DNA of 64,000 nt from Cytophagaceae bacterium (lineage in GTDB: Bacteria > Bacteroidota > Bacteroidia > Cytophagales > Cytophagaceae): NCBI GenBank assembly GCA_046290815.1, contig JBKBUF010000027.1, positions 1 through 64,000 on the forward strand, written 5' to 3'. Of this stretch, positions 3,814-23,759 are shown piece after piece. The notes under the pieces are model-generated. The model did not search any database. It saw only the letters and a program-made list of their open reading frames with translations, and was not told the DNA's origin. The first letter of the stretch is position 1. Each line of letters starts with the position of its first letter. A program made the position numbers and the translations under genes.

Positions 3814-4809
3814 ATGAACAACCAAACTACAGACCAGGAACCTACCCCTGAAGAACCTGTCATTTCTCAAAATACAAAGGTAAAGATTCAGAACAACAAA
3901 CATAATAGCCTAACAAAAACATTATTATGGGCAGCAATGACAATATTGTCTATTGCTACTTTCGTAAAATTAATCCCTATTTATGTTTACGATACTAACC
4001 CTATTCCAATTTCATTAGCAGGCGCAGCTTTAACATCCGTTTGTTTCGGCTTACTAATAATAACCTTTGGAAATAACCGCCTTTTTTATTTATCCAGAAC
4101 ACCACTAAAATATTTTTACTTTTTATTATCCGGAATGATCCTAACTACAACATATTATACCAATTATACTATTAGCAAAGAAAATGAATTAAAAATCAAT
4201 GGCATTATTACAACCGGGACAATTACTAATTTATATAAAGAAAACTTCAGACGATTTAATAAATATGAAATAACCGTTAGATTCAGCCATAAGGCAGGTA
4301 GACATAAAAGTGTAAGGAAAGCTGTTAATGAAGATGATTTTCAAAACCTATATAAAAATCAAAACATTTCCCTTATATATTTACCTGCTTACCCCGAAGT
4401 TGGAGAATTTCTTATAAGTTCACCTTTAATCCGCAAATACACAAACTCTGAGGAAAGGAAAATATTTATCAAAGATTTGATTGAATTACTTTCCATGGAC
4501 AATGCCGATCCCAAAAAATATTTAAACCAAATATATTATGGGTGGACATTCGATACTAAAAAAGATATGTGGACAAACAAAAGAACAAAGAATTCCTTTT
4601 ATTCATTTAGCGCAAAAACGAAATCGGCTACAATAGAGTTAAATGATTTATATATGGACTACACAAATCAGTTAGAATATTTGGGATTCCAGCAAGTTGA
4701 AAATAACGATGACACATTATTGGTATATGAATCTTCTAATTTTATAGCGCGAATTAAAACAGAATTTTTTCCAAAGGTGATAACTACTGTTAAAATTACC
4801 AAAAAATAA
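3814..4809 (+). CDS. Hypothetical membrane protein, 331 aa, with N-terminal transmembrane helices and a C-terminal soluble domain
   Basis: Hydrophobic segments occur between residues ~35-110 and are followed by a polar domain. No family was recognised. Confidence 0.55.
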   Translation: MNNQTTDQEPTPEEPVISQNTKVKIQNNKHNSLTKTLLWAAMTILSIATFVKLIPIYVYDTNPIPISLAGAALTSVCFGLLIITFGNNRLFYLSRTPLKYFYFLLSGMILTTTYYTNYTISKENELKINGIITTGTITNLYKENFRRFNKYEITVRFSHKAGRHKSVRKAVNEDDFQNLYKNQNISLIYLPAYPEVGEFLISSPLIRKYTNSEERKIFIKDLIELLSMDNADPKKYLNQIYYGWTFDTKKDMWTNKRTKNSFYSFSAKTKSATIELNDLYMDYTNQLEYLGFQQVENNDDTLLVYESSNFIARIKTEFFPKVITTVKITKK

Positions 4810-4919
4810 AATGAGAATACTTAACAACTTTGCCTTGTTTCCTGTGCACACAAACCATTCTGCATCATAACATAATTCTTTCATTGGGTGTAATAGTTCG
4901 TGAAGACACTAAGCAATGC

Positions 4920-6515
4920 CTAAACTTTCTTCTCAGCTACCAAAAACATATTGGTAACCGGGAATTCAATAGGTTTATACTCATTCCCCTTTAATTCAAA
5001 AAACTCCAATTTACCTCTAAAACGGTTTTCTACAATCCATTGGTTAGTGAATGCTAAAGATTCCTCCGATACCTCAAAGCCTACATCTTCTACATGATGC
5101 TTCCATTGCGTGTAAGACCAAAATGCAAATGTTTCATTCATTTCACTTTTCCAATTATCCAGATAATCTTTCTTAGTAGCAAATTCGCAGGCATCTCTAA
5201 GACTTAATTCAATAAATAGCTCCTCTGACTGAATAATTTTATATTTGAGAATATAATTTTGTTTCTTTCTGAAATCTCTCGCAAAACGTAAAAACCTCCC
5301 AAATGTGGACAATCCTGAAAGGTATTGCGATAACTCAGAGCGATCCTCAAGATCCTTTTCATAATCATCGTTCCTGCCGTCTTTATTATTTAATCTGAGA
5401 TATATTAATCTGTCTCCATCTTCAGGTCCAACTACATCTCTGTTGATCCAAACCCCACCAGGAACCAATTCTTCATATCTGTTTTTTATAAACCTTATAA
5501 GATCCTCTCTGGATCCGTAAGACTCTATCTCATGGGTTAATGAGGAAGTGAATATTGTATTCATGGATTCCTTATCAAACACCAAACCTGTAACGGCATT
5601 TTTCTGAGCAAAAAACACAAATGGATTTTTAAAATCACCATTATATTTTCGTTGCTGACAAATATCATATAGATGTCTTGAAACCTCTATCCCGTAAAAA
5701 TCAGATTCCCTCAATCTTTCATCAGAACATGCCAGTTTTATCCAGGATCCTACAGCACAACCAATATCACCGATTCGTCCTGGTTTAATGAACTTTGAGG
5801 TATCGTTGTACTTCATGTCAGCTATCTCATCCATTTGACGAACGTATGTATTATAATCTCGAGTAGAAGTGATGTCGCCATCATCTCCAATTATTTTATC
5901 TGAAAACAAGGTTTTAACTTTCTCGCCTATCTGGTATTTCTTCCAAACTTTATATGAGGAAGGATGGATTTTACTTATCAGGTATTTATCTTTATGCCAT
6001 TCGCCTTCTGATTTTGCAACGTATTCTACTAAATCCCAAGGTTGCTCAGCATGCATTTTCCCTGAAAAATTATTTTCTAACTCAGCCGGAAGAATACGAA
6101 ATCCAAGTTCCTGGTATAATTTCATAACAGGAGTGGAACAAACTACTAAAGTATTATCAGGTGATAAGGTTAATCTGCCTTCACTTTCATGTTTGATCAT
6201 TTTAATGGTGTAGGATGCAAAATCATCCCTGACACCTATGTCGTCAATTCCATATACATAAGTGGGAACATTAATTGCTTCTGAAAAGCCTTCCAAACTT
6301 ATCGCCCTTAAATAAAAAGGCAATGGATTCCTTCTTGTATTTGAATGATTAGCAGAAGTTACAGCAAAAATAATACTGGTAACCGGGCTTTTTATATCTA
6401 GCGACTTTCCGAATACATCTGTCTCCTCCTCCAAACCAGCTTGAGTAATGCGATACAAGTATTTAAATTGAAAATCTGTCAGGATATGATGTCTTCCAGG
6501 GAATAAAATGTGCAT
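4920..6515 (-). CDS. Two-domain protein, 531 aa: an unknown N-terminal domain plus a C-terminal class I SAM-dependent methyltransferase fold
   Basis: Motif I resembles RIGDIGCAVGSW, post-I resembles FYGIEVS, and motif III resembles LVPGGVWINRDVV. The gene sits immediately downstream of nadV but after an intrinsic terminator. Confidence 0.65.
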   Translation of the reverse strand: MHILFPGRHHILTDFQFKYLYRITQAGLEEETDVFGKSLDIKSPVTSIIFAVTSANHSNTRRNPLPFYLRAISLEGFSEAINVPTYVYGIDDIGVRDDFASYTIKMIKHESEGRLTLSPDNTLVVCSTPVMKLYQELGFRILPAELENNFSGKMHAEQPWDLVEYVAKSEGEWHKDKYLISKIHPSSYKVWKKYQIGEKVKTLFSDKIIGDDGDITSTRDYNTYVRQMDEIADMKYNDTSKFIKPGRIGDIGCAVGSWIKLACSDERLRESDFYGIEVSRHLYDICQQRKYNGDFKNPFVFFAQKNAVTGLVFDKESMNTIFTSSLTHEIESYGSREDLIRFIKNRYEELVPGGVWINRDVVGPEDGDRLIYLRLNNKDGRNDDYEKDLEDRSELSQYLSGLSTFGRFLRFARDFRKKQNYILKYKIIQSEELFIELSLRDACEFATKKDYLDNWKSEMNETFAFWSYTQWKHHVEDVGFEVSEESLAFTNQWIVENRFRGKLEFFELKGNEYKPIEFPVTNMFLVAEKKV

Positions 6516-9936: not shown

Positions 9937-11025
9937 TCATAAATTACTATTTTTTAATAATAAAGAGTATAAATATTCATATTCGTCCTTATCCAATATC
10001 AATTCATTTTTTCTCCTTTCTAAGTACATCAAAGGGGTAAAACCATAGCTGTCTTTTAAATTTGGGTTAATACCGGCGTTTAAAAGTAATTCTATGCACT
10101 TAGTGTAATTACTTTCTCCGTTTAGGAAACTGTTAATTTCGCCAAGTTTTCGTGTGGCAAGATGTAAAGCATTTCTGCCAAGACTATCTACTTTTTTTAT
10201 ATCAGCCCCTGCTACAATTAACTCTTTTAATGCTTTCGAATTGCCTTGAGAAGCTGCAATATGAACCGGGTATTCCTTATAACTTGAAATGTTCGGATCC
10301 GCTCCTTTGTCTATTAATAATCTGATTATTTCCGAGTTTCCGGTTAATGCAGCTAAATGAAGAGCTGTGTATTCATCACTGTCTTCAATCAAACTGAGGT
10401 CTTTTTCCAATAACCACTTTACCAAATTAATGCTGTTTCCTCTTATAGCAGCTTTGATGAGGTCTATATTGGAAGCTGCTATGGAAAGATCTGCTCCATG
10501 TTCCATAAGAAGCTTTACTGCTTCCTCATTGCCTTCAGATAAAGCTAAACTCAGAGCTGTTTCCCCATTTATATTTCTTTCATTGACATTTGCTCCTGCC
10601 AATAACAATGATTCTACTAATTTATGACTGGTTATCCTTTTTCTTAATAAATAGTTAACACTTCCACATGTATGAATTTTGGGAAGTAAAGAAGGTTGTA
10701 AGCTGTCGGAAAAGGAGTTTAATAAAACGGTGTTGCCAAAATTATCTTTAAAATTTATCTTAGCCCCCTTTCTGATTAAAAATAAAACCAGATCAGCATC
10801 ATTTTTACTGCAAGCATAATGTAGAGGAGTCCTTCCGGAATGGTCTCTTATGTTAAGGTTTGCTTTATGTTCTGAAAGCAATTTTATTGCTTCTGAATTT
10901 GCAGTTAGATGTACGGGACATTGGTTGTTTTTATTTTTTTCGTTAATCCGGAGGTTGTTTTTTTCTAAAATTAGTTTGATTAAATCTAAGTTAGCGCTGT
11001 CAAAGTTGTGAATGAGATAGTGCAT
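9937..11025 (-). CDS. Ankyrin-repeat protein, with at least 7 ANK repeats
   Basis: Ankyrin consensus elements recur throughout (TPLHYACSKNDADLVLFLIRKGAKIN, TALHLAALTGNSEIIRLLIDKGADPN and others). The ORF continues upstream in-frame to a TAATAG double stop. Confidence 0.8.
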   Translation of the reverse strand: MHYLIHNFDSANLDLIKLILEKNNLRINEKNKNNQCPVHLTANSEAIKLLSEHKANLNIRDHSGRTPLHYACSKNDADLVLFLIRKGAKINFKDNFGNTVLLNSFSDSLQPSLLPKIHTCGSVNYLLRKRITSHKLVESLLLAGANVNERNINGETALSLALSEGNEEAVKLLMEHGADLSIAASNIDLIKAAIRGNSINLVKWLLEKDLSLIEDSDEYTALHLAALTGNSEIIRLLIDKGADPNISSYKEYPVHIAASQGNSKALKELIVAGADIKKVDSLGRNALHLATRKLGEINSFLNGESNYTKCIELLLNAGINPNLKDSYGFTPLMYLERRKNELILDKDEYEYLYSLLLKNSNL

Positions 11026-12623: not shown

Positions 12624-14649
12624 TCAGTGTTTCAAAAATCGTTTTACTATTTTGCCCTGATTTGTATTCACCTCTACCAGATAACATCCTGGCTGGAGTT
12701 CTCCGGTAGGTAATTCTATTCTTGCATCGGAAAGGGAAGAAATTTTCTCTTCGAAAATTATATTTCCATTCAATGAAAATATTTTAAGCTCCACCGCATC
12801 GTAACTGCCATTAAAATCAAGGTAACAGTTGTCAGTGGCAGGGTTGGGATACAGGTCTACCGCAGTTGAAGAAAGTGCAGAAGCAGAAGTGATGGTACCT
12901 TCGGAAGCTATGGCAATCCAGTGGATGTTAAATCCTCTTGCAGGAATGCCTAATCCTATAGAGTAATTACCCTGTGGTAAATCCACTACTTTGGAAATGG
13001 TAGTCCAGTTCTGCCAGCCTCCTGTTGCAGGAACATTAAACGTTCCCAGTAAAGTTGCCCCTGCATCTTTCTCCAGCGCAATGACTCCGTTTGAATTCAT
13101 GGATGCCACTCTGAAATACACTCTGTATTTTCCTGTAAATGGTATGTTGACTGCAGGGTAACTCAACCAGTCACCTGCATCGATGTAGCCAACATTGCTG
13201 CCCCCTTCTTTGCAGGGTTCCTTCTCTACGCCTGACATTACATTGTAGGACTCTGCAGCTATTACTTTCAGCGGTTCATATGGCACTATAATCACCGTAC
13301 CGTTTACCTGACTTAAAATGTTAGTGGATGAATTTCCTCCCAAGGGGCGTATGTCTGCCCGCCAGGAGTAGGTCTTTCCTGTTTCGGGAAGGTTTGCAAG
13401 CGAAACTACCACATCCACAGTTTTGCTTCCTTCTATCTCTGTTGTCTTTGATGCTACAATGTTGTTCAGGTTATCGCGCAAGGTTACAACCAGATCTCTT
13501 TTTTCCTTAACTGTGTAATTGACTTGAACGGTATAGGATGTCTTAGGTGTGGTAAGGTTTGGTGATTTCACAAAACTGATTTCTTCTGTTACCTGCCCGT
13601 AATCATATGATCTCAAAATGGATCTTACCACCGAACCTGACCAGGTAAGATTGGAAGCGCTCCATCCACCTGTCGTGCTACCTCCCGGTTTGAGAATGGA
13701 TGCGCCTTCATTTTTATCATTGACACTCCAGTTGCAAGTGCTTAGCTTATTTGATTTGATAAAATTGAACCATGCATTGGTTTCAGCTTCATTCACGCCA
13801 CCGTTACCATCGGCATTTACAGTTCCCCACTCTGTAATGAACACGGCAACTCCTTTATTGAGTGCGCTCTGCACTTTGTCTCTGTACCATTGCCCGTGCG
13901 AACCAGCATAGAAGTGCATAGTATAAGCTATGTTGCTTCTGTTGATCGGGTCGTTGGCTGCCACATCTACATCGGATGACCAGTTGGGCGTACCTACTAC
14001 AATGATGTTGTCTGGGTCAATAGCACGTATCTCATCAATCACCTGAATGGCGTAAGGCTTTATCACACCGCCCCAGGAAACATTTAAGGGTTCATTATAA
14101 ATTTCATAAATGATATTGGGAAGATGTCCGTAGGTACTTGCCATCTCTTTAAAAAATGCGATGGCTTCAGCAGTATTCCACTCCGCATGGTGGCTGTGCC
14201 AATCGATGATCACATACATGTTGTTGGCAATGGCTGCATCTACAACCGTTTTCACTCTGGCTTTATTTGCGTCTTTGAATTGCAGATAGCCTCCGGGATC
14301 TTCCACACCCATCGCCGCTCTTACTATTGCGCAGTTCCAGTCATTTTTCAGCCAGGCCACCACGTCGGCATTGTAGTACTTTTCTCCGCCCCAGCCGTTG
14401 TTTGACCAAAAAAAACTGTTGCCCGCCAGTCCGACTGCCACTCCGTTTTTGTTCACGATTCTGTTTCCACTTACAGATAACGCCCCGTTGATCGACACCA
14501 CCTGGGCAGAAATCAGGTGCATGGAAAACAACAGCACCACCAAAATGAATATAATTTTTAGCCTGAAATCGGGCCCTTCTTTTTTGCGCAGCGAATTTAT
14601 ACCTTGTATAAAACCCCCACCTGTTTTAATCTCTAAATGTGTTTTCATA
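12624..14649 (-). CDS. GH5-family endoglucanase (cellulase) with a C-terminal carbohydrate-binding-like region and a T9SS type-A C-terminal sorting domain. The likely start is the internal Met (MKTHLEIK..), and the ORF is open up to 14918.
   Basis: GH5 catalytic signatures are present: ..IYEIYNEPL.. (acid/base NEP) and ..VFITEWGTV.. (nucleophile). A signal peptide-like segment IFILVVLLFSMHLISAQ follows the internal Met. The C-terminus KIFSLNGNIIFEEK..GCYLVEVNTNQGKIVKRFLKH is typical of a Por/T9SS CTD. Confidence 0.85.
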
Positions 14650-14809
14650 TCAAAAAAGTTATATTTAATGTGTGTTAAGTGACAAAATACTACACAAAAA
14701 GGAGAGCGCGGCACGAGGTTGGCTTGATTAAGTATAAAAAATTCTAAAATAAACACTAAATTTAGATGGTTTATACGCTTTAGTAAATGACTGATATTTA
14801 AATAATTGT

Positions 14810-16630
14810 TTGATGAGGAGGTATTGGATAGCGCTGGTTTTATACGCATTAGTCCTTTCGTGCTACGGTATGGATACTTTATCGGTCTACCGTGCCCGTG
14901 AGATGGAGATATTTGCACCTTTCCTCAAGTATCGGATAACTAGAGCGAAGGATGCCGTCTGGGAAAAAATCAGTCGTGACAAGGTGATGGTAAACCCCGG
15001 TGACATTTTTCACGCCGAGGCTTTGTTCAGGCCTGAGACTGATGCGGCTTTGGTTTTCGAATGGGCTGACAATAAGATTGAATTTTTAAAAGCCGGCATA
15101 GTCAATACTAAAGGTGATACCTGTGCCCATCTATTCTTCGATGATACCGAAGGTTATAACAACCAACTTTTCGTCAAAAATCATGTGATGGTTTTTCAGC
15201 GTCCAGTTGCTGGCGAAACCTATAGACTGCTTTATAAATTAAAAGCCCACAATCCTGTATATGCCATGTGCTGGATAAGCGATATGGATATATTTATAAA
15301 AAGATTTATCAGAGAGTACACCTGGTACGGCATCTTCTCCGGTATGATCATGATTATTTTTTCATTGAATGCACTGTTTTATATTATTCTCCGGGATAAA
15401 ACATTTTTATGGTATGCGCTATATACAATTGCTCTCGGAATTTTTCACTGGTCGTACACAGGTGTAGGTTTTCAATGGCTGTGGCCTGACTTACCGATCT
15501 GGAATCGTTATGCCTATATGTATGCTTCGTTCTTTATGTTGAGCATGCAGTTCATATACTTCCGTTATTACATAAAAAATTTGAATTTCCTCAACGAGTG
15601 GTATATCATCAGCATCATTGTTGCACGACTGGCCATACTTATGATTTCTATTTTCAGTCCGGACTTCAGGGAATGGTTTTTTCTTTCAGACTTTTTTACC
15701 TTTTCATATCTCCTGTTTCTACAAATAAAAATTAAGCTCTATGAAACACTGCATGGAAAAATGTTTATCACTTCTGTAAGTCTTCTGCTCTCTTCATACC
15801 TGATATTCATACTTGCCTTTTACCACATTATCCCTAATAGTGTATGGGCATACAATTCACTGGCAGTAGGCGGCTCATTGGAATTGTTGGTAGGATTACT
15901 TGCCCTTGCCTTGCGCTACAAATACCTGGGCGATGAAAAAGATAAGCTGAAACAATCAGAGATAAGTTCGCTTACCAAAATATCCTCTTTGAAAGATCAG
16001 CTGATTTATGAAACCAAAGAAAAAGCGCGCATACAAAAAGAAATAAATAAAGAACTTGAAATTAAAATTGCTGAGCGCACAATAGAACTTGCAAAGAAGA
16101 ATGAAGACCTGGAAGCTCTAAATAAAAAACTGAATGAAATCAGCAAGACATTGGACAAACAGAACTGGTCATTGAATAAAGAACTCAGAAGCGACAGGAT
16201 TACGTTAATGTGGGGGAAAAACATCAGCTTTTCTGAATTCACCAGATCCTTCCCGGCCGAGGATCATGTATTGCGTTTTATTGCAGACTTAAAATGGGAA
16301 GATGGCTACAGTTGTAAAAAATGCGGCAGCAGCGACTGGACAGCCGGCATACAATTTCAGGCCAGGAAGTGCAATAGTTGTAAATACGAAGAATCAGTTA
16401 CTGCCAATACTTTATTTCATGGTGTAAAATTCCCGCTTATAAAGGCACTGTATATTAGTCTTGCAACTGTGATTAATAGGGAAAACATATCCGTGAGGCA
16501 AATTGCATCAGAAATAGAATTAAGAGAAGCCACGGTTTGGACCTTCAGAAAAAAAACATTGGACAAAATAGCCAGTGCAACTAATAATCAGGGGGAGATA
16601 TTGAAGTGTTTTGTCAGGATGGAGATTTAA
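14810..16630 (+). CDS. 7TM-DISM-type membrane receptor fused, via a coiled coil, to an IS1595-family transposase-type zinc-ribbon/HTH domain. It is a putative membrane-anchored one-component transcription factor.
   Basis: The architecture is a signal peptide, a ~170-aa extracytoplasmic domain, seven hydrophobic helices (residues ~180-390), a ~100-aa coiled coil, and a C-terminus LRFIADLKWEDGYSCKKCGSSDWTAGIQFQARKCNSCKYEESVTANTLFHGVKFPLIKALYISL.. The C-terminus matches the Zn_Tnp_IS1595 N-terminal domain (CxxC...CxxC plus HTH). There is no DDE catalytic domain. Confidence 0.7.
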   Translation: MMRRYWIALVLYALVLSCYGMDTLSVYRAREMEIFAPFLKYRITRAKDAVWEKISRDKVMVNPGDIFHAEALFRPETDAALVFEWADNKIEFLKAGIVNTKGDTCAHLFFDDTEGYNNQLFVKNHVMVFQRPVAGETYRLLYKLKAHNPVYAMCWISDMDIFIKRFIREYTWYGIFSGMIMIIFSLNALFYIILRDKTFLWYALYTIALGIFHWSYTGVGFQWLWPDLPIWNRYAYMYASFFMLSMQFIYFRYYIKNLNFLNEWYIISIIVARLAILMISIFSPDFREWFFLSDFFTFSYLLFLQIKIKLYETLHGKMFITSVSLLLSSYLIFILAFYHIIPNSVWAYNSLAVGGSLELLVGLLALALRYKYLGDEKDKLKQSEISSLTKISSLKDQLIYETKEKARIQKEINKELEIKIAERTIELAKKNEDLEALNKKLNEISKTLDKQNWSLNKELRSDRITLMWGKNISFSEFTRSFPAEDHVLRFIADLKWEDGYSCKKCGSSDWTAGIQFQARKCNSCKYEESVTANTLFHGVKFPLIKALYISLATVINRENISVRQIASEIELREATVWTFRKKTLDKIASATNNQGEILKCFVRMEI

Positions 16631-16632
16631 CT

Positions 16633-17571
16633 TTAAAACCTCAATCTATATTCCAAACTAACTATCAGACTCCTTGTAAGTCCATCAGGTCTTGCCTTTC
16701 TCGCCAAAAATGGTGTCCCAATATTAAATTGAAATGAATTATTATCATTAATGATATAATCAATAAAAAAATTTCCATTTAAAGTTAAACCTTGCGAACC
16801 TTTAATCTCCCTTTGAATGCCGGCACTGTCTGTAAACCTGTCATCTGAAATATGATAGATGGGCAATAATCCAGGAGTAACTTTAAATTTATTAGTAAGC
16901 TTAACAGGATAAGACATTCTTAACAGAATATCACCGCTACGGATATAATTTTTAGTGGACTGAAAATTTCTCAATGGGAAATCAATCGGATAATCCTCTG
17001 CAATAAATTCATTGTTATTTTGAGTCAATGGTTGCTGAAAGGCGAGCATCAGTTGCAGTCCTTTAATTTCATATCCTAATCCACCTATCAAATCAATGGT
17101 ACCAAGGCTTGATTGATAATCCATGGGCAAAGAAATGTTGTTGATCTTTCTGTTAGCATTTGTCAATGGAATTTTCGAACCTAAAATTATCCTGATCTTG
17201 TTATCCATTTTATAATTCCCTATCAGGAAAACATCTCCTAAACCGAAAGTATTAATATTATTACCTGTTTGTCCCAGGGTAGTAAGCTTTATATCGACTC
17301 TAAACCTGTTAGAAAAAGAATAAATGTATTCCAGATAATTACCCCAAACCACAACCGAATTATCTGCCTTCCCATAAAAAGCACCTAGTTTTATCTGACT
17401 ACCTCCTTTAGTCGTACTATCTGTAATGGGTTTAATACCACCAATAGTACAAAAACCAGCATCACTACATCCCTGACTAAAAACATCCTTGCCTGATATG
17501 ATTATAAGAATAAATAAAATAAGCCATACAAATCGAAACTTAATTTTTATCATTTCAAGGTTCATTAACAA
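16633..17571 (-). CDS. Putative outer-membrane beta-barrel protein, 312 aa
   Basis: It has a signal peptide, alternating amphipathic beta-like segments, and a C-terminal ..SLEYRLRF aromatic terminus typical of OM beta-barrels. Confidence 0.5.
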   Translation of the reverse strand: MLMNLEMIKIKFRFVWLILFILIIISGKDVFSQGCSDAGFCTIGGIKPITDSTTKGGSQIKLGAFYGKADNSVVVWGNYLEYIYSFSNRFRVDIKLTTLGQTGNNINTFGLGDVFLIGNYKMDNKIRIILGSKIPLTNANRKINNISLPMDYQSSLGTIDLIGGLGYEIKGLQLMLAFQQPLTQNNNEFIAEDYPIDFPLRNFQSTKNYIRSGDILLRMSYPVKLTNKFKVTPGLLPIYHISDDRFTDSAGIQREIKGSQGLTLNGNFFIDYIINDNNSFQFNIGTPFLARKARPDGLTRSLIVSLEYRLRF

Positions 17572-17573
17572 TT

Positions 17574-18254
17574 TTACTCTTCTTTATATATATCAAATTC
17601 ATCAAACTTCAGCACACCAAAATCTTTCTTTGTAAGAATTTTTGTGGTGACCTTTTCCGGATCGCCGGTATGAAAACTTTCATGTCCGTCTTTATGCAGA
17701 TACCAGTAATTGTCTTCGGGTGAATATTTGTAGGTGATGATCCTTGTCCATCTCCAGGCGCTGCCGCCATGATGTTCCACGGAAAAATATCCTTTTTTTA
17801 TGGTGATACTCATATATGGATCTCCCATCATACCGCCACAATCGATGCAATAAACAGTATTTTCGTTTTTAGCTGCCAGCTTAAAAGTATTATCTGCCTG
17901 ACCTATCAGGATAAGCAAAGGCCTCTTTGCAGGATTTTCACTAACATCTGAAGTGGTTTCCTCGTCATTTCTTTTTAATACAAGAATCATATCCGGAATG
18001 GTATCAAGGTTAAGATCACCTGTGGCAGTGTCAAGCACAAGGTAATTTTCCGGAACAAACTTCATAAGGCTGCCGGATAAACCCTGTACAGTTTCTTTAT
18101 ATGGTACATGAGAGAAACCTGATGGTAGTGTTGTGGAATCAACTGCCGCTTCTTCTGTTACTACAACTTCTTCAGTCTGGTCTTTTGATGATTGTTTGCA
18201 GGAGAAACAGAATACTATAAAAAAAAGAGGGAGAATTAATAATTTACTGTTCAT
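17574..18254 (-). CDS. Hypothetical lipoprotein, 226 aa
   Basis: A lipoprotein signal peptide (..FCFSCKQSS) is present. The gene is 2 bp upstream of the OM protein gene and 14 bp downstream of a small membrane protein gene. Confidence 0.55.
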   Translation of the reverse strand: MNSKLLILPLFFIVFCFSCKQSSKDQTEEVVVTEEAAVDSTTLPSGFSHVPYKETVQGLSGSLMKFVPENYLVLDTATGDLNLDTIPDMILVLKRNDEETTSDVSENPAKRPLLILIGQADNTFKLAAKNENTVYCIDCGGMMGDPYMSITIKKGYFSVEHHGGSAWRWTRIITYKYSPEDNYWYLHKDGHESFHTGDPEKVTTKILTKKDFGVLKFDEFDIYKEE

Positions 18255-18268
18255 TGGTGTATAAATAT

Positions 18269-18688
18269 TCAGTGTTCAGATACTTTATTACGATGCGGTT
18301 TCAGCTTATAAAAAAACAAGGTTAAAAGTCCAAGCAGTAAAATTATCACTGCATACTTTAAAAGTAGTTCTTTTCTGAAGGATGTTGAAATAATATATTC
18401 ACGCTCCATTGCAATCAATTCCCATAAAATCAAGGTATAAATTTTATACGCACTAAAAAAAATGACTGCGCCAAATAAGAAGATCCAGACCATCTTATTA
18501 TTAAATACAATCTGAAAAAGCATTAGAATTAAAGGTATGTAAATGATATACCAATTCTTGATACCAAGAAATGCTACCGAATTCCAGCAACAAAAAATAT
18601 CATTACGCCACAAATACAACCATAATAAAACTATGGTGGCATAGTAACACCTTTGAAAAATATCAGAAAATATCCGATCTGATAGCAC
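18269..18688 (-). CDS. Hypothetical small integral membrane protein, 139 aa
   Basis: Four hydrophobic helices are predicted. The gene is tightly linked to the downstream lipoprotein gene. Confidence 0.45.
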   Translation of the reverse strand: MLSDRIFSDIFQRCYYATIVLLWLYLWRNDIFCCWNSVAFLGIKNWYIIYIPLILMLFQIVFNNKMVWIFLFGAVIFFSAYKIYTLILWELIAMEREYIISTSFRKELLLKYAVIILLLGLLTLFFYKLKPHRNKVSEH

Positions 18689-18852: not shown

Positions 18853-18880
18853 TTTATCATTTATCATTTATCATTTATCG
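18853..18880. repeat. Heptanucleotide tandem repeat (CATTTAT)4 spanning the stop codon of the 1631-aa gene
   Basis: The sequence catttatcatttatcatttatcatttatc is read directly from the window. Confidence 0.8.
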
Positions 18881-21800
18881 CCTTCTTTATCCCTTCCAGG
18901 CTCTCTCCCAATACCGACACCTGCGCCAATAGCTTCGCCATATGATCCTGACCGTCCATGCCGCGGAATTTCTGGTTCTTGCGGAAGGTGGTTTTGATCT
19001 CTTCCCATCTCTCTTTCTCTTTTTCAGTCATCCAGCCTGCGATCTCTTTAAACTTTAAAAGATTCGCCTCAGCACCGGTAGTTAATGTTTGCGATTCGTT
19101 TTGATAATGACCAAGGATAAGATTTTTTAATTCTTCATCGTTCATCAGCGGAACCACTTTCTCCGCCATTTTATTCATATTACGATAAGAACCCTGCAAC
19201 TTAAATGGAGGCTCTGTCCTGAACTCGTCTGATTGAGATGCTGATCTTATGTACTCAAGATTTACTTTCAGTACCAGTTCTCTTATGGCGTTAAGCTTCT
19301 TCAAAACTGATACCACTTCGTTGCTTTCTTCTGCAGAATAGGCACCTTCAAAATCAAGTCCCGTCTTATCTCCAGTTTCCACCAAAGAAAGGTATGAATG
19401 AACATCTTTAAGACTCTTATTAGAAACTCTTGATGTTACCGGATTAGAGGTAAGTGTATTTTCAATGTAGCTTAACTTAAATACATTGTCCTTGCCGCCA
19501 ATGATATCACCGAGATTATAGGTATCTGCTCTGTTGGCAAGCATGTCCGGAATTTTAAACTTCTCTCCGCTTTCTGTATACGGATTACCGGCCATTACCA
19601 CACATACCTTCTTGCCTCTGAAATCATAGGTTTTACTTTTTCCTTTATAAACACCTTCAATTTTTCTCTGTCCGTCACAAAGGGAAATAAACTTCTGCAA
19701 AAATTCTGCGTTGCAATGTTGGATATCGTCAATGTATATCATTACATTGTCTCCCATTTCAAAAGAGAGATTCAGCTTCTCCAACTCTTCTCTCGCTCCT
19801 GCATTGGTCGCCTCGGCCGGATCCAGCGATGTTACTTTATGACCTAAAGCAGGACCATTGATTTTCATAAATATTAATCCTAGTCTGCTCGCCACATATT
19901 CCATCAATGTAGTCTTACCATAACCCGGAGGTGATATAAGCAGGAGCATACCCATTTGGTCTGTTCTCTTATTTTCTCCAACCACACCTATCTGTTTGGC
20001 CAGGTTCGCACCTATCAAAGGAAGATAAACTTCGTCAATCAGTTTGTTTCTGACAAAAGAGGAAAGCACCTTGGATTTAAACTCATCCAGTCTTAACTGT
20101 TGTTTATATGCATCTATTAACTGAATTTTCAGGTGCTGATACTTTTCAAAAGCCGAAGCATGCTGATTGATATATAATGACAACTTATTGATGAAGCTGT
20201 TATAGTCCAGCAAATACTTTCCCTTTTCAATAAGTGCATGTTCTCCGCTCAGGCCTTGTAACTCTACAGATGTTTCTGTACGAATAACTTCTCCCTGAGA
20301 ATCTTCAAAGAGCAGCATAAGTGCTGTTTCTTTAAAAACTGAATTATCTGCTGCTAAACCTTCGCTGCTGCAGAAAGCCCTTATCCACTTCACTGCTGCC
20401 GATAATGTATTGGATGCATCGTTTTCAAATTTCTTTATCGACTCCTGAAACAGATCTCCATATTTATTCTTCTTCAGATAGGTGTTGAAGCTGTTATACA
20501 AATTGTGGGCAGGAAGGCTGGAAATAAATTTGTCACCACGCAGCAATTCCATAAACAGGTATTCTGCGGCCTGGTGTGCAAGTTCATTATTAAACTGACC
20601 TGTTGCATCGTTGTATGCCATAATAGACAACTCTACCTCATTTACCAGATCATCAAAGTCTCTTGCATCGGGGAATACTTTCAATATAAGTGAAAGTCCT
20701 TTGATTTTATTCTGAAGCAAGGTTCTTTGCTGCTCCTCTATCCCTGTATGATACCAGAACCTTGCACAGGCTCTTGCCTCTGAATTGTAAGTAAGCAGAT
20801 CTATGCTTCTGTACAGTTTCATCAGCGCTTTCAAAATTATTAGCGCATCTCTGTCACTCACACCTTTAAGGTAACCTTCTGCATAACGGGTAGACATAAA
20901 CTTCTGGATAAACTCCAGCAACTCATTTTCACTCATCAGCTCAAGATTTTCACTGATATTTTTATTGATATAGGATTGGAAAATAACGTAAGCCAGATAT
21001 TCTCCTTTATAAATATCTCTGTTTTCAGAAACTATAATCTGATTCCAGAAGGGCTTAGTCTGAATGAATGATTCGTCACTTATCCTTTCGAAAAATCCTG
21101 TACCGGTAATATGGTAAAACATTTCATTATCTCTGTTTACCATAGTAAGGTCTATAGGTTGTGTATTTACTGAGAAATGAAACTTACCGAATTTAATTAC
21201 ATTACCTCCTTCTGTGAACAGCTCCTGTTTATCTTTCAGCTGCCTGAGTGCATCTTCCTTTGCTGACTTTAATCTTCCCTGTATATCATCTGCCTTTACC
21301 GTATCCTTCAGTTCTTGTAGCTGCTTCACTATATCTCTCAGCTTATCGAGCATGAGATCAGAAGCGAAATAGCCATTGATGTCGGAAGCAGTTTTAAAGT
21401 TGTTCAAACGGTTTTTTACGCCGCTCAAAATTCTTTCTGCAGCGGACATAAGTGAGTTTGCTTTCCTGTTATTCTGCTCTACAAGCTGAAGTTTTCTGTT
21501 TTCAAAAGCTTCATATACCTCTTCTCTCTTTTCCGTTAGAGTAGTAATGAACTGATCGAAATCAGCAAACTTACCCTCAAGCTCCTCGATCTGTATCATT
21601 ACCTTTGAAAGGTATTCATCACATTTCTCTGGCTGATCTGATATATCCAGGTAATTGACAATAGACTGATCTATCAGCTTGATCTGGGCATGAAACTCAG
21701 CCAAACTTTCGGATTTTTTTAGTTCAAGCTTTTTATTTCTGATCCCTGCCTTCAATTGATTAACTTCTGCAAAAACCAATGAGATGTTGTCAATAATTTT

Positions 21801-23759
21801 TGTAGTCTGTGTAGCATCTTCTATTTTTAGGTTGCTGACAATTTCAATCAGCATTTCCAGTTGTTTCGCAGCATTCCCTATTTCTTCCTCTACTTTTGTA
21901 GCCTCAGTTACCTTGGAAGCTTTTTCAATATCTGCCTTGAGCTGGATTGTTCTTTCTTTATAGGGCAGCAGGGATTTTTCCTGTAGAAGGAACTGTACAC
22001 ATGAACGGGAAAGTTTGTCTGTCTGCTCAGCTACCTGAGCTTCCATGTGCTTTACCTGCTCAACATCAACATACCTTAGCTCTTTCAAACCAATTATTTC
22101 TCCTCTGAGTTGACGTAGGTCTGAAAGGGCTTTAACATAAGTATTGATATCCTGAAACTTCTCCCTCTTGATGAACGCCTGTACTTCATTTACTTTTTCA
22201 TTGCAGGCTTTTACCTGTTGCAGGGTATTCTTCTTAATCCTTACGACTTTCTCAAACTCCTCTATCGTTGCCGATGCAGTATTCCGGATATCAGTTAAAG
22301 GAATAGCCAGATTGCAGGCATCTTCCTCTCTGATCCAGAAATAACTGTCGAGTACATCATTGCTTCTGTTTACAATATCGAGATAAAGATTTTCATAACT
22401 TTCGTCGTCTTTCCTGATTAAGTTAAGAAGCTCTGTACACTCGGACATAGCACGCACGATGTTTTTGTTACCGATCTTAAACAAATAAGAATCAGGAACA
22501 GATGCAGGCACGTAATCCTGAGAAGTAAATGCGGTCTGCCATATCTGAATGACATGGTGTTTGGAAGCTTCATCTTCCGTTAAAAAATAAATCAGCTCAC
22601 CGTTTTTGAACAATGAATACCCGTTGCATACAATCAGGTTTTCTACCTTCTGTTGGATAATATTATATGGTAGCAGAATGTAAGCTCCATTGTCGCTATG
22701 ATAAAAAACATATAGATGATCTTCTCCGTTAGGGGATGAAATACGTTTTTCAAATTTCAACCCCTGTAATTCATTTTCAAAAAGCTTATACTCTCCTGTC
22801 TGCAAATAATAACCTTTTGAAAATATCAACCCTTGTGCATCAGGTAACAAAACACAGGAATCTTTTATAGCATCAATCCGCTGTGCTTTCTTTATTTTGT
22901 GATTGTAAACGATGTACCTGAAATTATCTTCCTTAAAGGGTCGAATCTTAAGAAGTATAATGTTACCCAGGTCTGCATAATACATTTCAGCATCATCCAG
23001 CCTTTGATCTTTATCTTCTACCGGTTCGGAATAAATACCCTCCCCTGTATCGGTGTTGTCTTCTACTTTAATGGTAAGATCACCGCCAACTGTCTCGATA
23101 AAAACTTTATCCAGAACAGAAATATGAGGATGCTTTCCTTTTCTGTGATAATCTCTGGAAGTTCTCAACCATTCAAACTCGAACTGTGCAGGATATTTGA
23201 ATTCACTTTCACTCCTGTTTCCTTCATATTTCAAGGAGGAACCCTGAATAAGCCACTTGAAAGTTTTGAAGTCATTAGGATTTTTCCCTATTCTGAAAAC
23301 CATGTGAAGGTAGGGGCCAATCACAGCGAACTTTTCAAAATATGTGTTCTTGTAATACTTATAAAGCTCTCTGAAGTCCAGCTCGAACTGATCGATCTTA
23401 ATCAGATCAAGTCCGGCAGCATGAAAAGATAGGTTGTTGAACTCATAGATACTGAATACATCGCTTAGGACTGTTTCTGATCTCAGTCCAATGTGTACGT
23501 TGTAACCAAAAAGCAGGTATTGCCCCAAAGCAATCATATCTCTGGGGACGCAGTTATTTTCAGTGGTAATGCGGTCGGTAGCTATAAGTTTGGTTTCAAT
23601 AGCGCCGAATACATTTTTCCGCTCTTCATTCAGCTTGTTGAGTCTCTCTGTAAGTTCGCTGCTTGCCTTCTCCAGTCTGCTTTTCAGAATCTCATAAGTA
23701 CCGGCATCAAGCTGATTTTTTTGACTTTCTTTATGGTCACGGCTTTTGTTTTCAGCCAT
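18864..23759 (-). CDS. Giant (1631 aa) uncharacterised AAA+ ATPase. The N-terminal ~450 aa are beta-rich, a central region of ~600 aa is coiled coil, and a C-terminal AAA_5/MoxR-dynein-like module follows.
   Basis: Walker A is LLLISPPGYGKTTL. Walker B is VMIYIDDIQH. Sensor-like segments are VCVVMAGNPYTESG and IPDMLANRADTYNLGDI. A long heptad-like E/K/L-rich middle region is present. The gene lies immediately downstream of the nfeD-flotillin pair on the same strand. Confidence 0.8.
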   Translation of the reverse strand: MAENKSRDHKESQKNQLDAGTYEILKSRLEKASSELTERLNKLNEERKNVFGAIETKLIATDRITTENNCVPRDMIALGQYLLFGYNVHIGLRSETVLSDVFSIYEFNNLSFHAAGLDLIKIDQFELDFRELYKYYKNTYFEKFAVIGPYLHMVFRIGKNPNDFKTFKWLIQGSSLKYEGNRSESEFKYPAQFEFEWLRTSRDYHRKGKHPHISVLDKVFIETVGGDLTIKVEDNTDTGEGIYSEPVEDKDQRLDDAEMYYADLGNIILLKIRPFKEDNFRYIVYNHKIKKAQRIDAIKDSCVLLPDAQGLIFSKGYYLQTGEYKLFENELQGLKFEKRISSPNGEDHLYVFYHSDNGAYILLPYNIIQQKVENLIVCNGYSLFKNGELIYFLTEDEASKHHVIQIWQTAFTSQDYVPASVPDSYLFKIGNKNIVRAMSECTELLNLIRKDDESYENLYLDIVNRSNDVLDSYFWIREEDACNLAIPLTDIRNTASATIEEFEKVVRIKKNTLQQVKACNEKVNEVQAFIKREKFQDINTYVKALSDLRQLRGEIIGLKELRYVDVEQVKHMEAQVAEQTDKLSRSCVQFLLQEKSLLPYKERTIQLKADIEKASKVTEATKVEEEIGNAAKQLEMLIEIVSNLKIEDATQTTKIIDNISLVFAEVNQLKAGIRNKKLELKKSESLAEFHAQIKLIDQSIVNYLDISDQPEKCDEYLSKVMIQIEELEGKFADFDQFITTLTEKREEVYEAFENRKLQLVEQNNRKANSLMSAAERILSGVKNRLNNFKTASDINGYFASDLMLDKLRDIVKQLQELKDTVKADDIQGRLKSAKEDALRQLKDKQELFTEGGNVIKFGKFHFSVNTQPIDLTMVNRDNEMFYHITGTGFFERISDESFIQTKPFWNQIIVSENRDIYKGEYLAYVIFQSYINKNISENLELMSENELLEFIQKFMSTRYAEGYLKGVSDRDALIILKALMKLYRSIDLLTYNSEARACARFWYHTGIEEQQRTLLQNKIKGLSLILKVFPDARDFDDLVNEVELSIMAYNDATGQFNNELAHQAAEYLFMELLRGDKFISSLPAHNLYNSFNTYLKKNKYGDLFQESIKKFENDASNTLSAAVKWIRAFCSSEGLAADNSVFKETALMLLFEDSQGEVIRTETSVELQGLSGEHALIEKGKYLLDYNSFINKLSLYINQHASAFEKYQHLKIQLIDAYKQQLRLDEFKSKVLSSFVRNKLIDEVYLPLIGANLAKQIGVVGENKRTDQMGMLLLISPPGYGKTTLMEYVASRLGLIFMKINGPALGHKVTSLDPAEATNAGAREELEKLNLSFEMGDNVMIYIDDIQHCNAEFLQKFISLCDGQRKIEGVYKGKSKTYDFRGKKVCVVMAGNPYTESGEKFKIPDMLANRADTYNLGDIIGGKDNVFKLSYIENTLTSNPVTSRVSNKSLKDVHSYLSLVETGDKTGLDFEGAYSAEESNEVVSVLKKLNAIRELVLKVNLEYIRSASQSDEFRTEPPFKLQGSYRNMNKMAEKVVPLMNDEELKNLILGHYQNESQTLTTGAEANLLKFKEIAGWMTEKEKERWEEIKTTFRKNQKFRGMDGQDHMAKLLAQVSVLGESLEGIKKAINDK

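What the first reader, a model, noticed from the sequence alone, without database searches (positions are those of the whole stretch)
14810..16630. 7TM-DISM receptor with a transposase-derived Zn-ribbon/HTH output, divergent from a secreted GH5 cellulase
The protein combines an extracytoplasmic sensor domain, seven transmembrane helices and a ~100-aa coiled coil. Its C-terminal domain has the pattern CxxCG..(15)..CxxC..SVTANTLFHGVKFPLIKAL, which is the N-terminal zinc-ribbon plus HTH module of IS1595-family transposases, but without any DDE catalytic domain. This reads as a domesticated transposase DNA-binding domain used as the output of a membrane receptor, that is, a membrane-tethered one-component regulator. 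7TMR-DISM receptors are thought to sense carbohydrates. The gene is transcribed divergently from the GH5 endoglucanase across a ~160-bp shared region. A direct polysaccharide-sensing regulator of cellulase expression is therefore a concrete hypothesis. As far as I recognise, this domain combination has not been described.
Basis: partly seen in the sequence, partly recalled or inferred. Interest (0 to 1): 0.72.

Follow-up and report, generated by a model that had tools for sequence, protein, structure and literature searches.

The report
Membrane glycan sensor with transposase-derived DNA-binding tail
This gene encodes a seven-helix membrane receptor whose cytoplasmic tail is the DNA-binding head of an IS1595 transposase without its cutting domain; it belongs to a large, apparently undescribed Bacteroidota family that almost always sits beside secreted polysaccharide-degrading enzymes and so probably switches them on or off directly.

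Summary
ORF 14810-16630 (+) encodes a 606-aa protein. It has a signal helix, a DISMED2/CBM-like periplasmic beta-domain and a 7TMR-DISM seven-helix core (Pfam E 1e-23). A ~90-residue cytoplasmic helix and a hinge follow, then a 120-aa Zn-ribbon + HTH module.

The module is homologous over its whole length to the N-terminus of genuine IS1595 (DDE) transposases (37% identity, E 9e-33). There is no DDE remnant anywhere in the window.

It is not a one-off. Thirty full-length orthologues keep the module as their best-conserved part. 773 cluster representatives (E<=1e-10) carry it, mostly at the C-terminus of ~600-aa 7TMR-DISM proteins, and also on Reg_prop/Y_Y_Y sensors.

In 10 of 10 orthologue loci analysed, a T9SS-secreted GH5/CBM6 or GH64/CBM6 gene lies divergently upstream. 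Paralogues sit beside GH64/GH16, GH18, GH5 or a GH3-SusC/SusD locus.

The intergenic region holds one conserved 26-bp block (14770-14795). It lies exactly 91 nt from a promoter-like element of the hydrolase gene in 11 of 11 loci.

Best reading: a membrane-embedded one-component glycan sensor and transcription regulator, functionally like ChiS or ToxR. DNA binding and regulation are inferred, not shown. No paper describing the family was found. Novelty: new variant of a known kind.

The parts
14810..16630 (+). Receptor/regulator gene (606 aa from TTG 14810; 605 aa from ATG 14813; stop included)
   Evidence: ORF list. An identical 605-aa protein, P0001, is in NCBI from a Cytophagaceae MAG. Thirty further full-length orthologues at 48-69% identity.
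14810..14875 (+). Signal peptide or N-terminal anchor helix (aa 1-22)
   Evidence: AF2 helix 2-19. This is the least conserved segment (0.42 mean column identity).
14876..15283 (+). Periplasmic all-beta sensor domain (aa 23-158), DISMED2/CBM-like
   Evidence: AF2 shows beta strands only. Foldseek hits the RetS periplasmic domain 2xbz/3jyb (E 5e-4, prob 1.00, TM 0.55-0.57), then CBM6/35/4 modules. The family profile aligns to the DISMED2 zone of relatives (E 7e-7 to 2e-4). Pfam DISMED2 itself does not hit.
15314..15913 (+). 7TMR-DISM seven-transmembrane core (aa 169-368)
   Evidence: PF07695, E 1e-23, 84.8 bits against cutoff 29, profile positions 1-204 of 205. Seven helices in the AF2 model.
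15923..16186 (+). Long cytoplasmic helix continuous with TM7 (aa ~372-459), a probable dimeric coiled coil or signalling stalk, ending in a flexible hinge (aa 448-466)
   Evidence: AF2 gives a single helix at 350-459 and pLDDT<50 at 448-466. 0.77 mean column identity. Dimerisation is inferred.
16217..16579 (+). IS1595-transposase-type Zn-ribbon + HTH module (aa 470-590). The four Cys are at 16313-16381 and the three-helix HTH at about 16436-16573.
14770..14795 (+). Conserved 26-bp block TTTATACGCTTTAGTAAATGACTGAT, a candidate operator (or the receptor's core promoter), 18-43 nt upstream of the ATG
   Evidence: It is the most conserved island in the alignment of 11 loci (0.91 identity against ~0.5-0.6 background). 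A leave-one-out PWM recovers it in 11 of 11 loci at 9.5-32.6 bits, against shuffle 95th percentiles of 2.7-5.3, with one copy per locus. There is a single exact copy in the window.
14683..14689 (-). Promoter-like element of the GH5 gene (reverse complement TATTTTG; TAnnTTTG in orthologues), about 35 nt upstream of the GH5 ATG
   Evidence: Conserved island 1 in alignment A3. It is a perfect TAnnTTTG in 7 of 11 loci and lies exactly 91 nt from the 26-bp block in 11 of 11. Reading it as the Bacteroidota sigma-A -7 box is from my own knowledge.
14649..14809 (.). Divergent intergenic control region (161 bp)
   Evidence: Sequence. No Rfam family matches at E<=1.
12624..14648 (-). Presumed target gene: a secreted GH5 endoglucanase with CBM6 and a T9SS C-terminal sorting domain (674 aa)
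   Evidence: Pfam Cellulase E 1e-60, CBM_6 E 1e-28, Por_Secre_tail E 3e-11. Close to solved GH5 endoglucanases 8zvk, 4m1r, 1egz, 1tvn and 5ihs (E 1e-97 to 5e-125).

Best explanation
The gene encodes a membrane-embedded one-component signal transducer.

A periplasmic DISMED2/CBM-like domain, together with the 7TMR-DISM helix bundle, senses a beta-glucan-derived oligosaccharide or a related envelope signal. The signal passes along a ~90-residue cytoplasmic helix, probably a dimeric coiled coil. That helix holds a Zn-ribbon + helix-turn-helix module about 13 nm below the membrane on a flexible hinge.

The module was recruited from the DNA-recognition head of an IS1595-family transposase and has lost the DDE catalytic domain. 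I propose that it binds the conserved 26-bp site in the 161-bp divergent intergenic region. From there it would control the adjacent T9SS-secreted GH5/CBM6 endoglucanase gene, and probably the receptor's own gene.

Shown here: the domain architecture, the homology to transposase N-termini, the absence of a DDE domain, purifying selection on the module, the conserved gene pairing, and the conserved DNA block with fixed spacing.

Inferred: the ligand, DNA binding, which site is bound, the sign of regulation, and whether the protein acts while tethered.
For: Architecture.

Homology of aa ~477-591 to DDE-bearing IS1595 transposases: E 9e-33, 37% identity, no gaps; P0172 has PF12760 + PF12762; four Pfam-confirmed transposase fragments plus P0087 hit only 16208-16600.

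Selection: the module is the best-conserved region (0.82-0.87 column identity, against 0.63 for the sensor), and the four Cys are invariant.

Family size: 3112 hits, 773 at E<=1e-10. Of the 149 new representatives among the best 150, 109 are at least 560 aa, nearly all with the module at the C-terminus, and 95 of those match this family's 7TM profile.

Same output on a second glycan-sensor chassis, Reg_prop/Y_Y_Y.

Gene neighbourhood: a divergent GH5/CBM6 or GH64/CBM6 gene with a T9SS tail in 10 of 10 orthologue loci, with variable downstream genes. Paralogues lie next to GH64+GH16, GH18+CBM6, GH5, or GH3 x2 + SusC/SusD.

Candidate operator.

Precedent for a membrane polysaccharide sensor that binds DNA directly, and for DNA-binding outputs on 7TMR-DISM proteins: ChiS (PMC8092284).
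Against: No experiment shows DNA binding for this module, and to my knowledge none exists for IS1595 transposase N-termini either.

The window protein's own PF12760 score is below Pfam's cutoff.

The conserved 26-bp block has no clear dyad or repeat symmetry, occurs once per locus, and lies ~100 nt upstream of the hydrolase promoter-like element. It could simply be the receptor gene's own promoter or leader.

No further copies were found upstream of the other hydrolase genes in the loci.

One paralogue subgroup follows an ECF sigma factor instead of hydrolases, so not every member need be a glycan regulator.

Gene adjacency shows a functional link, not its direction.
Confidence: 0.62

Rival explanations
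1. The same sensor and DNA-binding output, but working through regulated proteolysis. Signal-dependent cleavage at the flexible hinge (aa ~448-466), or within the membrane, releases a soluble ~140-aa Zn-ribbon/HTH regulator that then acts on the promoter.
For: There is a low-confidence, flexible hinge between the long helix and the module. Stand-alone ~144-167-aa versions of the module exist in chromosomal, non-IS contexts (P0193, P0206, P0197), so the module can presumably work untethered.
Against: No protease gene is conserved in the neighbourhood. The ~90-residue helix is highly conserved (0.77 identity), which fits a signalling and dimerising role rather than a disposable tether. ChiS, ToxR and CadC show that tethered operation is feasible (PMC8092284 for ChiS; ToxR and CadC from my own knowledge).
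Confidence: 0.13
2. The Zn-ribbon/HTH module is not a DNA-binding output. Instead it contacts a protein or an RNA, for example by sequestering a sigma factor or another regulator in the manner of an anti-sigma factor. Hydrolase expression would then be controlled indirectly.
Against: The module is homologous along its whole length to transposase N-termini, whose expected job is recognising DNA ends. Its third helix is rich in R and K and nearly invariant (REATVWAFRKKT). No sigma factor is conserved next to the orthologues. A conserved DNA block sits in the control region.
Confidence: 0.1
3. The protein does bind DNA, but the conserved 26-bp block is only the receptor's own promoter, leader or autoregulatory site. 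The hydrolase gene would be controlled by something else, and the adjacency would reflect co-expression or a shared niche rather than direct control.
For: The block lies 18-43 nt from the receptor ATG and ~100 nt from the hydrolase promoter-like element. One orthologue locus also encodes an HTCS-type regulator next to the GH5 gene.
Against: The two islands are exactly 91 nt apart in 11 of 11 loci even though the spacer is poorly conserved, which argues that they work together. The divergent pairing survives at 48% protein identity, and paralogues sit beside other hydrolase families.
Confidence: 0.1
4. A disrupted IS1595 element or an assembly chimera: the transposase N-terminus is fused by accident to a 7TMR-DISM gene.
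For: PF12760 is otherwise a transposase marker (PMC13639185).
Against: There is no DDE remnant in 64 kb. A convergent gene starts 2 bp after the stop. Thirty-one orthologues and hundreds of family representatives end at the same point, with the module as their most conserved region. The locus is syntenic in independent assemblies, including an isolate genome.
Confidence: 0.01

Closest known systems
[quoted passage not shown]
   Same: Both are inner-membrane polysaccharide (chitin) sensors that regulate glycan-utilisation genes by binding promoter DNA directly through a cryptic C-terminal HTH-type domain. The ChiS-family DBD always sits at the C-terminus of sensory proteins, and these include 7TMR-DISM proteins in Proteobacteria.
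   Different: The DNA-binding domain is unrelated. ChiS has a helix-sheet-helix HTH variant with no zinc ribbon, while this protein has a CxxC...CxxC ribbon + HTH of IS1595-transposase type. No ChiS chain appears in the PDB sequence or fold searches. ChiS also retains HAMP/HK/Rec domains, which are absent here. The phylum differs too: Proteobacteria against Bacteroidota.
7TMR-DISM receptors with enzymatic outputs (RetS, LadS, NicD, RgsP)
   Same: Same sensor chassis: a signal peptide, a DISMED2-type beta-sandwich and the 7TMR-DISM_7TM bundle. Carbohydrate ligands have been reported or proposed for DISMED2 domains (papers listed).
   Different: Their outputs are histidine kinase, GGDEF/EAL and similar domains. 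Here the output is a DNA-binding module with no phosphorelay or second-messenger domain. JGI's name for some orthologues, 'sensor histidine kinase LadS', is therefore wrong.
IS1595-family transposases (Zn_ribbon_IS1595 + DDE_Tnp_IS1595)
   Same: The N-terminal ~120 aa (two helices, a four-Cys ribbon, the SxTAxTxFH motif and a three-helix HTH) is homologous at 30-43% identity.
   Different: There is no DDE catalytic domain and no evidence of mobility: the locus is syntenic in the 10 loci where neighbours were analysed. The module is at the C-terminus of a membrane receptor rather than the N-terminus of a soluble enzyme. The terminal inverted repeats of a related IS show no significant similarity to the conserved intergenic block.
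Bacteroides hybrid two-component systems (HTCS) and other PUL regulators (SusR, ECF sigma/anti-sigma)
   Same: All are single-polypeptide membrane glycan sensors encoded next to the hydrolase or SusC/SusD genes they control. The same Zn-ribbon/HTH output also occurs on the HTCS-type Reg_prop/Y_Y_Y sensor, and one paralogue sits in a GH3-SusC/SusD locus.
   Different: HTCS proteins signal through HK + Rec domains to an AraC-type HTH. This protein has none of these, so signalling would have to be purely conformational.
ToxR/CadC-type membrane-bound one-component regulators
   Same: Sensor, membrane span and DNA-binding domain in one protein, acting at the membrane without phosphotransfer (my own knowledge).
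   Different: The topology is reversed: ToxR and CadC have an N-terminal cytoplasmic winged-helix DBD and one TM helix. Here the DBD is C-terminal, follows seven TM helices and a long coiled coil, and belongs to a different fold family.

Membership tests
7TMR-DISM receptors | 7TMR-DISM_7TM (PF07695) seven-helix domain above the curated threshold | tested here: met
   84.8 bits against cutoff 29, E 1e-23, profile positions 1-204 of 205 at aa 169-368. Seven TM helices in the AF2 model.
7TMR-DISM receptors | N-terminal extracytoplasmic DISMED1/DISMED2 beta-sandwich domain after a signal peptide | tested here: inconclusive
   Pfam DISMED2 does not hit this protein. However, the AF2 beta-domain at 23-158 matches the RetS periplasmic domain 2xbz/3jyb (E 5e-4, prob 1.00, TM 0.55-0.57). 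The family profile also aligns to the expected DISMED2 position (aa ~90-185) of relatives not themselves Pfam-scanned; other family members carry Pfam-confirmed DISMED2 at ~45-178. So the feature is met at fold level but not by the sequence model.
7TMR-DISM receptors | Cytoplasmic C-terminal signalling output module | tested here: met
   The odd TM count with an N-out signal peptide places aa 372-606 in the cytoplasm. The output here is a Zn-ribbon/HTH rather than an enzyme.
IS1595 transposase N-terminal Zn-ribbon/HTH module (PF12760 region) | Match to PF12760 above the gathering threshold | tested here: inconclusive
   The window protein scores 19.1 bits (21.8 on the isolated domain) against cutoff 25.4, although it covers profile positions 2-45 of 46. 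Twenty of 21 orthologues hit at E<=0.1 (best 3.4e-6). Paralogues with the same architecture score 26.5-39.8 bits, above the cutoff.
IS1595 transposase N-terminal Zn-ribbon/HTH module (PF12760 region) | Four zinc-ligand Cys (CxxC...CxxC) conserved | tested here: met
   C502, C505, C521 and C524 are invariant in 31 sequences. They are modelled on a beta-ribbon.
IS1595 transposase N-terminal Zn-ribbon/HTH module (PF12760 region) | Direct sequence homology to proteins that also carry the DDE_Tnp_IS1595 domain, extending through the HTH | tested here: met
   P0172 (PF12760 + PF12762): 37% identity over 115 aa, no gaps, E 9e-33. P0198, P0209, P0210 and P0213 give E 1e-22 to 1e-28 by tblastn.
IS1595-family transposase / insertion sequence (as an active or decayed element) | DDE catalytic domain (PF12762) in the same or an adjacent ORF | tested here: not met
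   No PF12762 hit in the protein. The DDE parts of the transposase-like queries that carry one match nothing in the 64-kb window (all E>0.6). The downstream ORF is convergent and starts 2 bp after the stop.
IS1595-family transposase / insertion sequence (as an active or decayed element) | Mobility: variable genomic location and terminal inverted repeats | tested here: not met
   The same divergent partner gene is present in all 10 orthologue loci analysed. Flanking inverted repeats around the gene were not searched for. The conserved upstream block is not IR-like (p = 0.07-0.9).
Membrane-bound one-component transcription regulators (ToxR/CadC/ChiS-like, a functional class) | Sensor, membrane span and DNA-binding domain in one polypeptide, with no phosphotransfer domains | tested here: met
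   Searches show no HK, Rec, GGDEF or other enzymatic domain. The HTH fold is supported.
Membrane-bound one-component transcription regulators (ToxR/CadC/ChiS-like, a functional class) | Sequence-specific DNA binding and transcriptional control of target genes | not testable with these tools
   Only indirect support: conserved synteny and a conserved 26-bp block at fixed spacing.
ChiS-family DNA-binding domain | [quoted passage not shown] | tested here: not met
Bacteroides hybrid two-component system (HTCS) | HisKA/HATPase_c + Response_reg + AraC-type HTH | tested here: not met
   None of these domains is found.

The most novel reading that the evidence does not exclude
The IS1595-type Zn-ribbon/HTH module is the output of a major, so far unrecognised class of phosphorelay-free glycan-sensing transcription regulators in Bacteroidota. 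A transposase DNA-recognition head was domesticated once and then placed on at least two different periplasmic glycan-sensor chassis, 7TMR-DISM and Reg_prop/Y_Y_Y. The resulting membrane-embedded regulators would directly control T9SS-secreted glycoside hydrolases and SusC/SusD loci. They would fill the role that HTCS, SusR and ECF/anti-sigma pairs play in Bacteroides, and would explain how Cytophagia regulate their cellulases and beta-glucanases.
Probability: 0.45. Interest if true: 0.78.

Novelty: new variant of a known kind. Interest (0 to 1): 0.64.

Why it matters
How Cytophagia and many environmental Bacteroidota decide when to secrete cellulases, beta-glucanases and chitinases is largely unknown. 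The textbook PUL regulators (HTCS, SusR, ECF sigma/anti-sigma) come from gut Bacteroides.

This family offers a concrete, widespread candidate. It has a predicted sensor domain, a predicted DNA-binding domain, a candidate 26-bp operator and two culturable hosts, so the question can be tested directly.

It would also be a clear bacterial example of a transposase DNA-binding head domesticated as a transcription-factor output. It adds a new output type to the 7TMR-DISM and Y_Y_Y sensor families.

There is a practical consequence too. PF12760 is used as a transposase marker in mobile-element annotation (PMC13639185), so these chromosomal receptors will be miscounted as transposases. Some are also misnamed as LadS histidine kinases.

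Tried and rejected
(1) Broken IS or chimera: rejected. There is no DDE remnant, the stop position and synteny are conserved, and the downstream gene is convergent.

(2) The conserved 26-bp block as a relic of IS1595 terminal inverted repeats. A related element (L038, 36-nt IRs at 3903-3938 and 4897-4932) contains TTTATAGGTTTAG, which looks similar. Local-alignment scores are no better than for random 36-mers from the same locus (p = 0.07-0.9), so this was rejected.

(3) Extra copies of the block upstream of the other hydrolase genes, or a second half-site within the intergenic region: none found consistently.

(4) An RNA element in the intergenic region or leader: no Rfam match at E<=1. Covariation was not analysed.

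(7) The word-indexed search with the C-terminal profile returned mostly short fragments. It added stand-alone and transposase-type relatives but said little about the receptor family.

(8) Neighbourhoods of the two Reg_prop/Y_Y_Y fusions: the contigs end just upstream of the genes, so these were uninformative.

(9) Literature: no paper links 7TMR-DISM with IS1595 or PF12760, or describes such regulators. The founding 7TMR-DISM paper is not in the held library, so absence of a prior description is not proven.
Full report

The ORF lies at 14810..16630 on the + strand. It is 606 aa from the TTG, or 605 aa from the ATG at 14813, which is the start used for the identical NCBI protein from a Cytophagaceae MAG. 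The quoted pattern is there: C502-KK-C505-G, 15 residues, C521-NS-C524, then KYEESVTANTLFHGVKFPLIKAL.

Pfam places 7TMR-DISM_7TM on residues 169-368 over the whole model (84.8 bits, cutoff 29). It places the IS1595 transposase zinc ribbon (PF12760) on 483-526 over profile positions 2-45 of 46, but at 19.1 bits, below the 25.4 cutoff. There is no kinase, receiver, GGDEF or DDE domain.

The full-length AlphaFold model (pLDDT 77) shows:
- a helix at 2-19;
- an all-beta domain at 23-158;
- seven membrane helices at 159-372, the last of which continues as one unbroken helix to residue 459;
- a low-confidence hinge at 448-466;
- the C-terminal module.

The neighbour at 12624..14648 (-) is GH5 + CBM6 + a T9SS sorting domain. 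It is very close to solved GH5 endoglucanases such as 1EGZ, 1TVN and 5IHS (E 1e-97 to 1e-125). The two genes diverge across 161 bp.

**2. Is the C-terminal domain really transposase-derived?**

The sub-threshold Pfam score made this the critical test, and four lines of evidence settle it.

(a) On the isolated domain, 20 of 21 orthologues hit PF12760 (best E 3.4e-6). More distant proteins with the same architecture score above the cutoff, at 26.5-39.8 bits.

(b) An exhaustive profile search of 1.84 billion representatives found proteins carrying the module at their N-terminus followed by DDE_Tnp_IS1595. P0172 aligns to window residues 477-591 at 37% identity with no gaps (E 9e-33), so the match runs through the HTH as well as the ribbon. 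P0198, P0209, P0210 and P0213, all with PF12762, behave the same way.

(d) It is not a decaying IS. The DDE parts of the transposase-like queries that carry one match nothing in 64 kb. A convergent gene starts 2 bp after the stop. In 31 full-length orthologues (48-69% identity), the module is the best-conserved region, at 0.82-0.87 mean column identity against 0.63 for the periplasmic domain.

**3. The sensor side**

Pfam's DISMED2 model misses this protein. However, the modelled beta-domain matches the RetS periplasmic (DISMED2) domain (2XBZ/3JYB, E about 5e-4, prob 1.00, target TM 0.55-0.57). A long series of CBM6, CBM35 and CBM4 carbohydrate-binding modules follows. A profile of residues 23-168 aligns to the DISMED2 zone of relatives. 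Paralogues carry canonical DISMED2. A divergent DISMED2/CBM-like glycan-sensing domain is therefore the best reading.

**4. How common is the architecture?**

It is very common. The module profile finds 3112 cluster representatives (50% identity level), 773 of them at E<=1e-10. Of the 149 new representatives among the best 150, 109 are at least 560 aa, nearly all with the module at the C-terminus, and 95 of those match this family's 7TM profile. Many shorter ones are N-terminally truncated fragments that still match the coiled-coil region.

The same module also ends ~1000-aa proteins whose periplasmic part is the Reg_prop/Y_Y_Y sensor typical of Bacteroides hybrid two-component systems (P0119, P0153). 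Genome hits come from Cytophagaceae, other Cytophagales, Chitinophagaceae, Persicobacter and unclassified Bacteroidota. Stand-alone ~144-167-aa versions exist in non-IS chromosomal contexts.

So this is a general output module for membrane sensors in this phylum, not a one-off fusion.

**5. Genomic association**

Ten distinct orthologue loci were analysed: the window, C. aurantiaca L001, L003, L005, L007, L009, L010, L013, L014 and the P0030 contig. In every one, the gene immediately upstream and divergent is a secreted GH5/CBM6 or GH64/CBM6 enzyme, usually with a T9SS tail. More GH5, GH64 or GH16 genes often lie behind it. The downstream genes differ from locus to locus.

More distant paralogues sit beside other enzymes:
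- GH64 + GH16 (L016, 43% identity);
- CBM6/ricin + GH18/CBM6 (L019);
- GH5 (L024, in the same MAG as orthologue L014);
- two GH3 genes on one side and SusC/SusD on the other, in Persicobacter diffluens (L025).

One subgroup (L020-L023) instead follows an ECF sigma factor.

GH5_2 endoglucanase together with GH64 and GH16 and a beta-glucan-type CBM6 suggests beta-glucans in general, not only cellulose.

**6. The control region**

An almost gap-free alignment of the ~170 nt upstream of 11 non-redundant orthologue genes shows two conserved islands in otherwise poorly conserved AT-rich DNA.

Island 1 lies about 35 nt upstream of the hydrolase ATG. On the hydrolase strand it reads TAnnTTTG in 7 of 11 loci. 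This is the Bacteroidota sigma-A -7 consensus (my own knowledge). The window has TATTTTG at 14683-14689.

Island 2 is TTTATACGCTTTAGTAAATGACTGAT (14770-14795), 18-43 nt upstream of the receptor ATG, with a GC core that stands out. A leave-one-out PWM finds it in 11 of 11 loci at 9.5-32.6 bits, against shuffle 95th percentiles of 2.7-5.3. There is one copy per locus and no consistent secondary site.

The two islands are exactly 91 nt apart in all 11 loci. That argues for a constrained nucleoprotein geometry.

No Rfam family matches. The block is not significantly similar to the terminal repeats of a related IS.

**7. Mechanism proposed**

I propose a phosphorelay-free, membrane-embedded one-component regulator. 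Glycan binding to the periplasmic domain and helix bundle changes the register or packing of the long, probably dimeric, cytoplasmic helix. That in turn changes how the hinged Zn-ribbon/HTH heads engage the 26-bp site in the divergent promoter region. The result would be control of the secreted hydrolase and probably of the receptor's own gene.

Architecture, homology, selection, synteny and the conserved DNA block are shown here. The ligand, DNA binding, the sign of regulation, and tethered action versus proteolytic release are inferred.

Rivals:
- release of the module by proteolysis;
- a non-DNA partner, such as an anti-sigma-like role;
- autoregulation only;
- a broken IS (refuted).

**8. 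Comparison with known systems**

The closest working analogue is V. cholerae ChiS. It is a membrane chitin sensor that binds promoter DNA through a cryptic C-terminal HTH. Its DBD family is always C-terminal and is also fused to 7TMR-DISM in Proteobacteria (PMC8092284). However, the DBDs are unrelated, and ChiS keeps its kinase and receiver domains.

The protein is a member of the 7TMR-DISM family by its 7TM core. It carries a member of the IS1595 N-terminal module family. It is not a transposase (no DDE domain), not an HTCS and not a ChiS-family DBD protein.

**9. Novelty**

Nine full-text searches found no paper that links 7TMR-DISM with IS1595 or PF12760, or that describes such regulators. 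PF12760 appears only as a transposase marker.

Databases already record both domains on some members (P0009) but name the proteins generically, or wrongly as 'LadS histidine kinase'. The founding 7TMR-DISM paper could not be read here, and subscription literature is not covered, so a prior mention cannot be excluded.

I rate it a new variant of a known kind: membrane-bound one-component regulators, with a new output of transposase origin and a clear ecological role. Interest is 0.64, and confidence in the proposed mechanism is 0.62.

Noticed in passing
L020 3634-6752; L021 2717-5936; L022 1671-4897; L023 4989-8302: A paralogue subgroup (Chitinophagaceae and Cytophagaceae MAGs) has an ECF sigma factor (192-193 aa) and a 123-125-aa ORF with no Pfam hit directly upstream, on the same strand as a DISMED2-7TM-Zn-ribbon/HTH receptor. 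No hydrolase is nearby. This may be a three-part sigma/unknown/receptor module with a different logic.
   Followed up: partly
L039 4001-4435 (P0193); also P0197, P0200, P0206: Stand-alone 144-167-aa proteins consist of the Zn-ribbon/HTH module alone, on long contigs (29-135 kb). Where the neighbours were examined (P0193, locus L039) they are ordinary chromosomal genes. NCBI calls one of them a 'transposase'. They may be soluble domesticated regulators.
   Followed up: partly
P0119 (L042 678-3683), P0153 (L041 242-3388): These ~1000-aa proteins join the Reg_prop beta-propeller/Y_Y_Y periplasmic sensor of Bacteroides HTCS, via one TM helix and a coiled coil, to the same Zn-ribbon/HTH module. They look like a short-circuited HTCS without kinase, receiver or AraC domains. 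The contigs end just upstream, so target genes could not be seen. Downstream of P0119 is a 1307-aa PA14/PKD/fn3 surface protein.
   Followed up: partly
P0009, P0020, P0028; PMC13639185: There are annotation problems. JGI names several orthologues 'two-component system, sensor histidine kinase LadS' although they have no kinase domain. PF12760 is used as a transposase marker in mobile-element pipelines, which would count these chromosomal receptors as transposases.
   Followed up: no
window 14810-16630 (model m9e9796c0ff74): The best Foldseek PDB hit of the full-length model is human Wntless (8TZS, E 6e-6), and TMEM87A also appears. These are eukaryotic proteins with a luminal beta-sandwich on a seven-helix bundle. 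This may be a distant structural parallel between 7TMR-DISM and GOLD-domain 7TM proteins, or just a shared topology.
   Followed up: no
window 16633-17571 (-) and 17574-18254 (-): The two genes convergent with the receptor (312 aa and 226 aa, both with signal-like N-termini) have no significant Pfam or NCBIfam match. They are not conserved next to the orthologues.
   Followed up: partly
L001 7641-7830 and L003 7636-7830: In C. aurantiaca and a related MAG, the called GH64 gene starts ~190 nt further from the conserved promoter-like island than in the other loci. The position that holds the hydrolase start codon elsewhere is still conserved there (TTTCATAATGAAATA). This could be a long 5' leader, a displaced start or a small upstream ORF.
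   Followed up: no
window 18444-18460: TTATACGCACTAAAAAA shares the first eight bases of the conserved block, with 3 mismatches to the 17-mer. The window-wide count of such near-matches (7) is at the upper end of the shuffle distribution (mean 2.65; 3 of 100 shuffles reached 7), so most are probably chance.
   Followed up: partly
window 9937-11025 (-) and 18864-23759 (-): There is an ankyrin-repeat-like 362-aa protein (repeated 'G.TPLH.A...G' motifs, read by eye) and a 1631-aa protein with a long coiled-coil-like middle and a P-loop motif (GPPGYGKT, read by eye) near the C-terminus. Neither was analysed.
   Followed up: no
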